This document shows positions 28,417 to 29,403 of a stretch of 64,000 nucleotides of DNA, one piece after another. The notes below the pieces were generated by a model, which worked only from the letters and a program-made list of their open reading frames with translations, was not told where the DNA came from and did no database searches. Origin of the DNA: an uncultured Clostridia bacterium (lineage in GTDB: Bacteria > Bacillota > Clostridia > TANB77 > UBA1234). The position numbers and the translations under genes were made by a program. The stretch spans positions 36,748-100,747 of the forward strand of contig CAKPEF010000001.1 of the NCBI GenBank assembly GCA_934149305.1. Direction: 5' to 3'. How positions within the stretch are numbered: the stretch's first letter is position 1; each line of letters opens with the position of its first letter.

Positions 28417-28779
28417 TTATTCCTCCCTCTTATTTAATTCTAAAGCAATTATTTTTCTTATATCATCTTCTAATGTGCTTAAATCGTTGTTTATAACATA
28501 CCAAATACTTTTTAAGTTTATTCCCTCATAATCATGAACAATTCTATTTCTAAGTCCTTTTATCATATTCCATTCTATAAAATCATATTTATTCATTAGC
28601 TCTTTTGATATATTTTTTATAAGCTCTCCAATTTGGCTAATTGCAAAAACTGTAGCATCTCTTGTTTTCTCATCTTCTGTAAACATTTCAAATGTATATC
28701 CTTTTGTATATCTTTTTGCTCTTTCAATATATTCAATTATTTTTTCGAGTGATATGTACTCTTTATCTTTCATATACAA
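28417..28779 (-). CDS. hepT: HepT-like (DUF86) toxin of a HepT/MntA nucleotidyltransferase toxin-antitoxin pair
   Basis: ~120 aa with the RNRIVHDYEGINL (Rx4HxY) motif; overlaps the upstream nucleotidyltransferase gene; its stop lies 2 nt before the ileS ATG. Confidence 0.6.
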   Translation of the reverse strand: MYMKDKEYISLEKIIEYIERAKRYTKGYTFEMFTEDEKTRDATVFAISQIGELIKNISKELMNKYDFIEWNMIKGLRNRIVHDYEGINLKSIWYVINNDLSTLEDDIRKIIALELNKREE

Positions 28780-29071
28780 TCACCCCCGTTTTCTTAATCT
28801 CTTCTGCTATTTTTGAATTATCTATAATCTCTGCTTTTTCAAATGCATCAACTCGTTTTTGAAATGCCTCTTCTATCTTAGTAATTAAACTATATAATTT
28901 AAAACCTATTAAAGTCTCTTTCGTATCTATTACAAAATCTAGGTCGCTATTTTCATTTGCCAAGTTTTTAGCATAAGAACCAAATAGCACAACACTCTCA
29001 ACCGGAAAATTTATCATAATTTTCTTCAGTATTTCTTTTATTTCCTCTAAGGTATATACTTTACCGCTCAT
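28763..29071 (-). CDS. mntA: MntA-like minimal nucleotidyltransferase (antitoxin)
   Basis: VVLFGSYAKNLANENSDLDFVID (GS...DxD NTase motif). Start ATG 29071 with a GGGGGCG RBS. The longer track ORF would run into the terminator, so I reject that start. Confidence 0.6.
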   Translation of the reverse strand: MSGKVYTLEEIKEILKKIMINFPVESVVLFGSYAKNLANENSDLDFVIDTKETLIGFKLYSLITKIEEAFQKRVDAFEKAEIIDNSKIAEEIKKTGVIVYER

Positions 29072-29108
29072 AACTACGCCCCCTTTTCTTAAAATTTTAA
29101 TTTTTTTC

Positions 29109-29370
29109 CAAAACAAAAAGCACCTTGCCCTAAAGTTACCTTCGGACAAAGTGCTTAAGCTCTTTGCTATACCACCTACATACTAACATATGCGTTCTTC
29201 TATAACGTGAAGACCAACCCGGCAAAACTTACTCTTGTTTCTGTTTTGCAACATAAAAGGTGATTTTCGGCTTATCTATTAGCTATGAAACTTTCAGCAA
29301 ATGTTTCACTCTCTAAAGCTTTTAATAAACTTACTCTCCTTTATAATAGTTTTTATTACTCTTAAAACTA
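29109..29370 (-). promoter_or_regulatory. T-box-like riboswitch leader (Ile, AUC specifier candidate) with a terminator, upstream of mntA-hepT-ileS
   Basis: Stem-I-like AGAGAGUGAAAC; candidate specifier GAAAAUCACC (AUC + A); T-box-like GUAGGUGGUAUAGC; terminator AAGCACUUUGUCC-loop-GGGCAAGGUGCUU followed by UUUUUGUUUU at 29109-29156. Confidence 0.4.
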
Positions 29371-29375
29371 GTTAT

Positions 29376-29403
29376 AGTATATCACATATTATGGAAATGT
29401 AAA
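29376..29403 (-). promoter_or_regulatory. Sigma-A promoter of the leader-TA-ileS transcript
   Basis: Minus strand TTTACA - 16 nt - TGaTATACT. Confidence 0.5.

What the first reader, a model, noticed from the sequence alone, without database searches (positions are those of the whole stretch)
28417..29403. HepT/MntA toxin-antitoxin pair embedded between a T-box-like leader and ileS
Order on the minus strand: promoter (TTTACA-16-TGaTATACT), a ~260-nt leader with T-box-like elements and a terminator, mntA (nucleotidyltransferase with GS...DLD), hepT (Rx4HxY) overlapping mntA, then ileS starting 2 nt after the hepT stop, with the ileS RBS inside the hepT coding sequence. ileS has no independent leader. 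The essential Ile-tRNA synthetase therefore appears to be co-transcribed and translationally coupled with a TA module under tRNA-Ile-sensing control. I know of no described precedent. It would tie toxin expression to Ile charging status, or stabilise the TA through an essential gene.
Basis: partly seen in the sequence, partly recalled or inferred. Interest (0 to 1): 0.7.

Follow-up and report, generated by a model that had tools for sequence, protein, structure and literature searches.

The report
Toxin-antitoxin pair inside an ileS leader
A small toxin-antitoxin gene pair sits between the tRNA-sensing switch and the isoleucyl-tRNA synthetase gene it controls, and has been kept there intact across several related gut Clostridia, so an essential gene is most likely transcribed only through a toxin module; no expression or function was measured.

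Summary
On the minus strand lie a conserved promoter, an Ile-specific T-box leader (Rfam E 4e-14, AUC specifier, UGGU, terminator with antiterminator), mntA, hepT, and type-2 ileS 2 nt after the hepT stop.

Comparative data show the following:
- None of the 80 GTDB representative genomes searched by IleS similarity has the pair near ileS, and the closest ones have a canonical T-box-ileS locus. The pair is therefore a roughly 680-bp insertion between the terminator and the native ileS RBS.
- It is not a one-off. All same-species contigs carry it, and so do three further lineages (IleS 90-92% identical). These form one clade, and both genes are under strong purifying selection (dN/dS 0.07-0.10) with catalytic motifs intact.
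- Two other lineages carry unrelated genes in the same spacer. The other 40 of the 42 leaders detected end 21-224 nt before ileS.
- Two TA-bearing lineages show no T-box within the short contigs available. The conserved linkage is therefore TA-ileS, not demonstrably T-box-TA.

Co-transcription is a strong inference. It rests on there being no room for a promoter, no terminator and no conserved internal promoter, but it is not shown. A physiological role in Ile starvation is speculative. No precedent turned up in the literature searched. I rate this a new variant of known kinds, of moderate interest.

The parts
29376..29403 (-). Sigma-70-type promoter: TTTACA, 16-nt spacer, TG-extended TATACT
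   Evidence: 10 of 12 matches, TG present. The same promoter aligns in the TA-free relatives L005, L007 and L008.
29139..29356 (-). T-box leader (Stem I, Stem III, T-box sequence, antiterminator), Ile-specific
   Evidence: RF00230 full-length match, 65.8 bits, E 4.1e-14. Homologous leaders in relatives score 81-98 bits. The alignment shows a conserved GAA(A/U)AUCACC specifier region and GGUGGUA.
29262..29264 (-). Specifier codon AUC (Ile), followed by the conserved purine A and then the Stem I base helix CCUUU
   Evidence: Read from the sequence. Its position fits the TBDB rule (bases 2-4 from the 3' end of the specifier bulge), and AUC is the preferred Ile specifier (PMC7778990). It is invariant in all 7 aligned leaders.
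29171..29174 (-). T-box bulge 5'-UGGU-3', predicted to pair with the 3' ACCA end of uncharged tRNA-Ile
   Evidence: Sequence. Invariant in alignment A6. The tRNA-Ile discriminator base of this organism was not checked.
29110..29154 (-). Intrinsic terminator: GCACUUUGUCC / GGGCAAGGUGC, 13-nt loop, then UUUUUGUUUU. The 5' arm is shared with the antiterminator.
   Evidence: The hairpin appears in the MFE and centroid folds. The helix is kept with compensatory changes in L007 and L008. The simple scan missed it because the loop exceeds 8 nt.
28763..29071 (-). mntA, a minimal nucleotidyltransferase antitoxin (102 aa) with GSx10DxD
   Evidence: PF01909 at 3.4e-14. NCBIfam MntA_antitoxin 39.3 bits, below the cut-off of 60. 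PDB 5yep_A MntA at 1.4e-4. dN/dS 0.07-0.09 against orthologues.
28417..28773 (-). hepT, a HEPN RNase toxin (118 aa) with Rx4HxY. It overlaps mntA by 11 nt.
   Evidence: PF01934 at 8.1e-26. NCBIfam HepT_toxin 44.4 bits, below the cut-off of 60. Profile hit to Shewanella HepT 5yep_B/6m6u_B at about 5e-9, with RNxxVHDY aligned. dN/dS about 0.10.
28427..29108 (-). Inserted block relative to TA-free relatives (about 680 bp: mntA 5' UTR, mntA, most of hepT)
   Evidence: blastn shows the window leader ends its homology with L005 at 29111, and homology resumes at 28426. See the alignment. The same edges are marked by a 100-N scaffold gap in L090.
28421..28427 (-). Ancestral ileS Shine-Dalgarno GGGAGGA, now inside the last codons of hepT
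   Evidence: Conserved as GGAGGAA in TA-free L005 and in all TA-bearing lineages, whether or not hepT reads through it.
25301..28414 (-). ileS, type-2 isoleucyl-tRNA synthetase (1037 aa). The start codon lies 2 nt after the hepT stop.
   Evidence: PF00133, PF08264 and DUF5915. NCBIfam TIGR00392 ileS 966.5 bits against a cut-off of 621.

Best explanation
[quoted passage not shown] It landed in the short spacer between the terminator of the Ile-specific T-box leader and the Shine-Dalgarno sequence of type-2 ileS.

In the window's species, and at least in the L097 lineage, the only recognisable promoter is the one in front of the T-box. The RNA that escapes the T-box terminator should therefore carry mntA, hepT and ileS as one transcript (inferred). 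The toxin, its antitoxin and the synthetase would then rise and fall together with tRNA-Ile charging.

MntA neutralises HepT enzymatically, by AMPylating the Tyr of Rx4HxY (known for the family, not tested here). Such a pair needs no DNA-binding autoregulation, so it can tolerate being driven by a foreign regulatory element.

The pair is functional and under purifying selection. Its long retention is most simply explained in two ways:
- The module is addictive.
- Any imprecise deletion would damage expression of ileS, which is presumed essential.

A dedicated role in Ile starvation is not needed to explain the data.

The leader-to-gene spacer of ileS appears permissive for such promoterless cargo. 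Unrelated genes occupy it in two other lineages.
For: **Anatomy**

**Insertion**
- tblastn with the window's HepT and MntA finds nothing in the 80 GTDB ileS loci.
- L005, L007 and L008 align through the promoter, T-box and terminator, and then reach ileS after about 55-190 nt.

**Fixation within the species**
- At least 22 contigs from many samples, at 98-100% nt identity, show the same layout.

**Older than the species**
- L097/L098, L093/L094 and L095 (IleS 90-93% identical to the window's) have mntA-hepT abutting ileS.
- L097 shows the same terminator-to-mntA junction.
- The window, L097 and L093 form one clade in the IleS tree. L095 is too short for the tree, and its first 160 residues do not place it.

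**Function retained**
- dN/dS is 0.07-0.10 for both genes at dS of about 0.9-1.5, and the motifs are intact in every copy.

**Co-transcription**
- The terminator-to-mntA gap is about 38 nt, and the hepT-to-ileS gap is 2 nt.
- The scan reports no terminator-like site anywhere in 28000..29600.
- The only promoter-like hexamers near the hepT 3' end (TAGAAT) are not conserved; L093, L095 and L097 have TAGAGC.
- In TA-free relatives, ileS has no promoter of its own downstream of the leader.

**Permissive spacer**
- L006 against L184 (IleS 98% identical) shows a clean 1054-bp DUF2207_C insertion in the same place.
- L046 carries a transglutaminase-like ORF there.

**Hitchhiking habit**
- Related cassettes lie 14-125 nt behind unrelated co-directional genes.
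Against: - No transcript data exist. A weak or non-sigma-70 promoter inside mntA or hepT cannot be excluded.
- The window's T-box scores lower (65.8 bits) than those of TA-free relatives (81-98 bits). It has a GCUG rather than GGUG distal-loop motif and an A.C mismatch in Stem I, so its efficiency is unknown.
- L093 and L095 keep TA-ileS but have a DUF2207_C gene ending 15-25 nt before mntA, and L095 has no T-box within 2.4 kb upstream. T-box control is therefore not a conserved property of the TA-ileS unit, or the T-box lies further upstream on sequence I could not obtain.
- Long retention under purifying selection is also what a co-opted function would produce.
- Whether this ileS is the only copy in the genome, and hence essential, is unknown.
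Confidence: 0.65

Rival explanations
1. Co-opted circuit. The TA pair has been recruited as a tRNA-Ile-charging-responsive effector. When uncharged tRNA-Ile stabilises the antiterminator, HepT RNase is produced together with IleRS. It transiently restrains translation or degrades RNA, acting as a growth brake, a persistence mechanism or a phage-abortive response, until MntA AMPylation and restored charging reset the system.
For: - The T-box is intact and Ile-specific, and its terminator and T-box stems are conserved between the window and L097 despite dS of about 0.9.
- The TA pair has been retained under purifying selection across at least four lineages.
- Neighbouring variable genes in relatives match candidate phage-defence families: PDC-S02, PDC-M59A/B, and PDC-S09 for MntA.
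- Type VII HEPN toxins have been implicated in tRNA and mRNA cleavage (PMC11586414).
Against: - L093 and L095 keep TA-ileS without a detectable adjacent T-box.
- Toxin and antitoxin are induced together, so induction alone does not obviously free the toxin.
- Other cargo in the same spacer (a DUF2207_C membrane protein, a transglutaminase-like protein) has no link to tRNA.
- The TA family sits in many unrelated operons.
- There are no expression or phenotype data.
Confidence: 0.17
2. Independent units. The TA pair and ileS only look like one operon. A promoter inside the leader, mntA or hepT drives ileS, and possibly the TA pair, independently of the T-box, which would then be vestigial.
For: - Promoter-like hexamers exist inside mntA (TTGGCA-16-TAGATT, 28963..28936) and at the hepT 3' end (ATGATA-18-TAGAAT, 28466..28437).
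- The window's T-box has the lowest score of the clade.
- The L093 and L095 lineages apparently manage without an adjacent T-box.
Against: - The number of promoter-like hits equals the chance expectation (6 found, 7.0 expected).
- Neither candidate is conserved in L093, L095 or L097.
- A start inside mntA would express the toxin without a full antitoxin.
- The T-box stems and terminator are conserved, with compensatory changes.
Confidence: 0.13
3. Decaying or artefactual insertion. The TA genes are a recent, neutral, soon-to-be-lost insertion or an assembly chimera.
For: - One scaffold (L090) has a 100-N gap exactly replacing the cassette. This shows that the assembly graph broke at both cassette edges in that sample.
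Against: - The identical layout appears on at least 22 independent contigs from different studies.
- Orthologous layouts occur in three further lineages.
- Reading frames and motifs are intact, and dN/dS is 0.07-0.10.
Confidence: 0.03

Closest known systems
Transcriptional T-box leaders of aminoacyl-tRNA synthetase genes (Rfam RF00230), specifically ileS T-boxes with an AUC specifier
   Same: - Stem I with specifier loop and S-turn, AG bulge and distal loop, and Stem III.
- UGGN T-box bulge, with mutually exclusive antiterminator and terminator.
- The specifier matches the regulated synthetase.
- TA-free relatives have the textbook arrangement, with ileS 21-224 nt after the leader.
   Different: - Two unrelated protein genes (a toxin and its antitoxin) lie between the attenuator and the synthetase gene.
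- The score is below Rfam's gathering threshold.
- The distal-loop motif is GCUG instead of GGUG.
Class I type VII HepT/MntA (HEPN/MNT) toxin-antitoxin systems, e.g. Shewanella oneidensis SO_3165/SO_3166 (PDB 5yep; PMC7641770)
   Same: - Gene order mntA then hepT, with overlapping reading frames.
- PF01909 paired with PF01934.
- GSx10DxD in the antitoxin and Rx4HxY in the toxin.
- Both proteins detect the solved Shewanella proteins by sequence or profile.
   Different: - MntA is minimal, at 102 aa against 139 aa.
- Both proteins fall below NCBIfam's equivalog cut-offs.
- There is no promoter region of its own. The pair is embedded between a riboswitch-type leader and a housekeeping gene presumed essential.
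- Activity, AMPylation and target RNA are untested.
TA modules embedded in housekeeping or stress operons (e.g. mazEF upstream of the sigB operon in Staphylococcus aureus; from my own knowledge, not checked here)
   Same: A TA pair co-oriented with, and read through into, downstream chromosomal genes.
   Different: - Here the upstream control element is a tRNA-sensing attenuator.
- The downstream gene is an aminoacyl-tRNA synthetase with essentially no intergenic spacer.

Membership tests
T-box leader (RF00230) | Match to the family covariance model at or above the curated gathering score | tested here: not met
   65.8 bits against a gathering score of 93, though the match is full length (model 1-219) with E 4.1e-14. 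Orthologous leaders score 81.4-98 bits, and only L008 exceeds 93.
T-box leader (RF00230) | Specifier codon in the Stem I bulge that matches the amino acid of the regulated gene | tested here: met
   AUC followed by A, directly before the basal helix (29264..29261). It is invariant in 7 leaders. AUC is the preferred Ile specifier (PMC7778990). The synthetase gene downstream is ileS.
T-box leader (RF00230) | T-box 5'-UGGN-3' bulge within an antiterminator that competes with an intrinsic terminator | tested here: met
   UGGU at 29174..29171. Terminator arms at 29154..29144 and 29130..29120 plus a U-run. The 5' arm CUUUGUCC is shared with the antiterminator. The helix covaries.
T-box leader (RF00230) | tRNA-dependent antitermination | not testable with these tools
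   This needs in vitro transcription with charged and uncharged tRNA-Ile, or in vivo reporters.
Class I type VII HepT/MntA TA system | A PF01909 (MNT) gene immediately upstream of a PF01934 (HEPN/DUF86) gene | tested here: met
   PF01909 at 3.4e-14 and PF01934 at 8.1e-26, with an 11-nt overlap.
Class I type VII HepT/MntA TA system | GSx10DxD motif in MntA and Rx4HxY motif in HepT (PMC7641770) | tested here: met
   GSYAKNLANENSDLD and RNRIVHDY are present in the window and in all orthologues (L095 has RNRIAHDY). The motif aligns to Shewanella HepT GLRNIAVHDY.
Class I type VII HepT/MntA TA system | NCBIfam equivalog cut-offs (HepT_toxin NF047751, MntA_antitoxin NF047752) | tested here: not met
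   44.4 and 39.3 bits against cut-offs of 60. They are the best-scoring families for both proteins, but these are divergent members.
Class I type VII HepT/MntA TA system | HepT toxicity (RNase) and neutralisation by MntA-catalysed oligo-AMPylation of the motif Tyr | not testable with these tools
   Only indirect support is available: purifying selection on both genes.
Type-2 (eukaryote-like) isoleucyl-tRNA synthetase | ileS equivalog score and the type-2 C-terminal domain | tested here: met
   TIGR00392 at 966.5 bits against a cut-off of 621.4. DUF5915 at 2e-53. The MupA and MupB resistance models fall far below their cut-offs.
Defence island or integration hotspot (considered) | Several unrelated defence-type genes varying between close relatives at one locus | tested here: inconclusive
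   - Genes within 3 kb upstream of ileS in relatives include PDC-S02 (L095) and PDC-M59A/B (L182), and the window's MntA matches PDC-S09.
- DUF2207_C genes occur in variable number.
- Most of these lie upstream of the T-box rather than in the spacer.
- The sample is small, and no recombination sites were found.

The most novel reading that the evidence does not exclude
The T-box does more than carry a hitchhiker. In this clade, a tRNA-Ile-sensing riboswitch has become the sole regulator of a HEPN RNase toxin. Ile starvation, or any insult that uncharges tRNA-Ile (including phage takeover or IleRS inhibitors), would then directly trigger a toxin burst together with extra IleRS. This would be a riboswitch-gated TA or abortive-infection circuit. 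A related idea is that leader-to-ORF spacers of T-box genes are recurrent landing pads, giving promoterless accessory or defence genes starvation-inducible expression.
Probability: 0.15. Interest if true: 0.75.

Novelty: new variant of a known kind. Interest (0 to 1): 0.45.

Why it matters
T-box leaders and HepT/MntA modules are each well understood. A toxin-antitoxin pair placed between a tRNA-sensing attenuator and its essential synthetase gene has not, as far as I could find, been described.

If the unit is one transcript, it gives a natural case in which:
- toxin expression is slaved to tRNA charging, and
- an essential gene can be expressed only through a toxin module.

That bears on how chromosomal TA modules become entrenched, and on whether TA or defence genes exploit riboswitch-controlled transcription.

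Unrelated cargo occupies the same spacer in two other lineages. This suggests that attenuator-to-gene spacers are tolerated insertion sites, which matters for operon annotation and for predicting T-box regulons.

The practical importance is modest unless a physiological role is demonstrated.

Tried and rejected
1. **L090 as an empty site.** I first took L090 for a same-species strain without the pair. It is a scaffold with 100 Ns exactly over the cassette, so it cannot serve as an empty site.
2. **Rfam gathering-threshold scan.** It gives no T-box. Only the E-value mode on the subregion reveals it.
3. **Metagenome scan with HepT.** It returned only relatives of 73% identity or less. None is next to ileS, so it did not extend the clade.
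4. **Search for the T-box of the L093/L095 lineage.** I looked through DUF2207_C homologues. This uncovered L182-L184, but not longer contigs of that lineage. P0172 lies in an unrelated context, and the look-ups were then exhausted.
5. **Candidate internal promoters.** They are at chance frequency and not conserved.
6. **HepT single-sequence PDB search.** It found nothing, and a profile was needed.
7. **RNAalifold consensus of the leaders.** It pairs the specifier region with the T-box sequence. I treat that as an artefact of two invariant complementary motifs, not as structure.
8. **Edge comparison with non-ileS cassettes (L096, L099).** No shared flanking sequence or repeats turned up that would reveal an insertion mechanism.
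Full report
**1. What is in the window**

On the minus strand, the gene and element order is as follows.

- A BofC-like ORF lies at 30018..29416.
- A promoter TTTACA-16-TGaTATACT lies at 29403..29376.
- A structured leader follows the promoter.
- mntA lies at 29071..28763 (102 aa, PF01909 at 3e-14).
- hepT lies at 28773..28417 (118 aa, PF01934 at 8e-26, 11-nt overlap with mntA).
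- Type-2 ileS lies at 28414..25301 (1037 aa).

The hepT stop is 2 nt from the ileS ATG. The ileS Shine-Dalgarno sequence GGGAGGA (28427..28421) lies in the last hepT codons. The window has no second copy of the pair.

**2. The leader is a real, Ile-specific transcriptional T-box**

- Rfam's default thresholds report no T-box in the window.
- A permissive scan of the leader gives a full-length RF00230 match at 29356..29139, with 65.8 bits and E 4e-14. This is below the gathering score of 93.
- The specifier bulge ends GAA-A-AUC-A before the basal helix CCUUU. Under the TBDB positional rule the specifier is therefore AUC, the preferred Ile specifier (PMC7778990).
- cmscan's own alignment is shifted by one base there, because the 5' side of the loop is one base shorter than the model.
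- The T-box bulge reads UGGU.
- The downstream hairpin GCACUUUGUCC / GGGCAAGGUGC plus UUUUUGUUUU (29154..29110) is a good intrinsic terminator. Its 5' arm is shared with the antiterminator.
- In an alignment of seven related leaders, the terminator and other helices show compensatory changes.

**3. The TA pair is an insertion into a canonical T-box-ileS locus**

- I fetched 80 ileS loci from GTDB species representatives, with IleS 58-86% identical to the window's. tblastn with the window's HepT and MntA finds nothing in any of them.
- The closest relatives (L005, L007, L008) align with the window through the promoter, T-box and terminator, and then reach ileS after about 55-190 nt.
- Homology of the window to L005 stops at 29111 and resumes at 28426. 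About 680 bp are therefore extra in the window.
- The ileS SD sequence is ancestral. L005 reads AAGGAGGAATTTTAAATG, and the window reads GAGGGAGGAATAAAAATG. The hepT reading frame simply runs into it.

**4. It is fixed in the species and older than the species**

- The identical HepT occurs on 15 contigs.
- The identical BofC-like neighbour occurs on 23 contigs that were read, taken from 68 index blocks.
- All contigs that span the site, at 98-100% nt identity, carry T-box-mntA-hepT-ileS.
- The one apparent exception, L090, is a scaffold with 100 Ns exactly over the cassette. It is not an empty site.
- HepT homologues at 81-86% identity lead to three further lineages: L093/L094, L095 and L097/L098. 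Their IleS is 90-93% identical to the window's, and mntA-hepT abuts ileS in each.
- L097 has the same T-box 3' half, terminator and terminator-to-mntA junction as the window.
- In an IleS neighbour-joining tree, the window, L097 and L093 form one clade, sister to the TA-free L005. This indicates a single gain. L095 is too short for the tree.
- More distant HepT relatives lie in unrelated contexts. These are L096 at 74%, L099 at 77%, and 80 metagenome loci at 73% or less.

**5. The pair is functional**

- Between the lineages, ileS dS is about 0.9-1.1, which marks a deep divergence.
- dN/dS is 0.07-0.09 for mntA and about 0.10 for hepT, against 0.03-0.06 for ileS.
- GSx10DxD and Rx4HxY are intact in every copy.
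- These are the defining motifs of class I type VII HepT/MntA systems. In that family, MntA oligo-AMPylates the motif Tyr of HepT (PMC7641770).
- MntA detects the solved MntA/MNT proteins 5yep_A, 8xeh and 7ae2.
- A HepT profile detects Shewanella HepT at about 5e-9, with the catalytic segment aligned.
- Both proteins fall below NCBIfam's equivalog cut-offs. They are divergent members of the family.

**6. Is it one transcription unit?**

This is inferred, not shown. The arguments for it are as follows.

- Only about 38 nt separate the terminator U-run from the mntA ATG.
- Only 2 nt separate hepT from ileS.
- The scan reports no terminator-like site anywhere in 28000..29600.
- Promoter-like hexamers occur at chance frequency, 6 found against 7.0 expected. 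Those inside mntA and hepT are not conserved in L093, L095 or L097.
- In TA-free relatives, ileS has no promoter of its own after the leader.

Translational coupling is possible but not necessary. ileS keeps a strong SD sequence, and in L097 a 1-nt indel moves the hepT stop 16 nt upstream of the ileS ATG.

**7. What complicates the T-box-controlled toxin reading**

- In L093 and L095, a DUF2207_C gene ends 15-25 nt before mntA. L095 shows no T-box in 2.4 kb upstream. Either the T-box was lost there or it lies further upstream. I could not obtain longer contigs.
- In L182-L184 (IleS 89-90% identical), DUF2207_C arrays and a PDC-M59-like pair lie upstream of a canonical T-box-ileS.
- The conserved feature across the clade is therefore the TA-ileS junction. 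T-box control is demonstrated by sequence only for the window's species and for L097.

**8. The spacer has been hit more than once**

- L006 and L184 have 98% identical IleS. In L184 the leader and ileS are contiguous, whereas L006 carries a 1054-bp insert with a DUF2207_C gene in exactly this slot.
- An iterated nhmmer profile of the leader finds it in 42 of 76 usable GTDB loci. It ends 21-224 nt before ileS in 40 of them.
- The two exceptions are L006, and L046 with a 953-nt spacer. In L046, a 308-aa transglutaminase-like ORF fills the gap and overlaps the ileS start.
- Many loci without a detectable leader have ileS packed directly behind another gene. An ileS without its own leader is therefore not remarkable in itself.
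- Relatives of this TA family are often 14-125 nt behind a co-directional gene. This rests on naive ORF calls and is only indicative. It fits a promoterless, operon-hitchhiking cassette.

**9. Literature**

- Full-text searches combined HepT/MntA/HEPN/DUF86 with T-box, riboswitch, ileS or aaRS operons. They returned no paper describing such an arrangement.
- The HEPN superfamily survey mentions no aminoacyl-tRNA synthetase context.
- The TBDB paper does not mention toxins.
- The library is incomplete, so this is absence of evidence only.

**10. Verdict**

- The most likely account is that a functional, promoterless type VII TA cassette was captured once in the T-box-to-ileS spacer. It is transcribed with ileS and has been entrenched there for a long time.
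- A dedicated Ile-starvation or defence role is possible but unsupported.
- I classify this as a new variant of known kinds, with interest of about 0.45.

Noticed in passing
L006:3867-4920 (compare L184:8716-8722): There is an independent 1054-bp insertion carrying a DUF2207_C membrane-protein gene between the ileS T-box terminator and the ileS RBS. The sister genome L184 (IleS 98% identical) has the empty site.
   Followed up: yes
L046:3826-5001: This is a third lineage with cargo in the same spacer. A weak T-box (Rfam 36 bits; nhmmer E 4.5e-23) is followed by a 308-aa transglutaminase-like ORF (4072..4998) that overlaps the ileS start.
   Followed up: partly
L109:5671-8926: A distant mntA-hepT pair (HepT 55% identical) is followed 3 nt later by valS (valine-tRNA ligase, 1236 bits). 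No T-box is found on the 9.9-kb contig. This is a second TA-next-to-class-I-aaRS case, but one in about 80 neighbourhoods could be chance.
   Followed up: partly
L093:1-714 and L095:1-2681: These two lineages carry mntA-hepT-ileS, but a DUF2207_C gene ends 15-25 nt before mntA, and L095 has no T-box in 2.4 kb upstream. L095 also has a YhcG/DUF1016 nuclease gene matching the candidate defence family PDC-S02 (8e-123).
   Followed up: partly
L095:1-135 and L095:1284-1414: A roughly 130-nt direct repeat contains two GC-rich hairpins, and the second hairpin differs between copies by a compensatory change. The first copy is followed by a tiny remnant ORF resembling a DUF2207_C C-terminus. This suggests the YhcG gene inserted with duplication of the DUF2207_C upstream region. 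No Rfam match was found.
   Followed up: no
L182:5001-10122, L183, L184:5001-8072: Three tandem, highly divergent DUF2207_C genes lie just upstream of the ileS T-box. In L182 and L183 these are followed by a 339-aa gene plus a Fic-domain gene, matching the candidate defence pair PDC-M59A/B. The region upstream of ileS is variable and defence-island-like in this clade.
   Followed up: partly
L090:5911-6010 (= window 29108..28427): One same-species scaffold has a 100-N gap whose edges coincide exactly with the TA cassette edges. This may point to a repeat or a presence/absence polymorphism in that sample's assembly graph.
   Followed up: partly
window 24883-25083 (-): A 6S RNA gene (RF00013, 85.9 bits) lies about 220 nt downstream of ileS on the same strand. 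Strains L086 and L088 differ from the window by an indel next to it.
   Followed up: no
window 30074-31637 (-): A Polysacc_synt (SpoVB/MurJ-like flippase) gene appears split into two overlapping ORFs, 31637..30723 and 30799..30074. The same split is called in all same-species contigs, so it is either a conserved frameshift or a genuine two-gene arrangement.
   Followed up: no
L016:7179-7410: A second T-box-like leader hit (nhmmer E 6e-17) lies on the same strand within the ileS region of this locus, more than 5 kb downstream of the ileS start. It was not examined.
   Followed up: no
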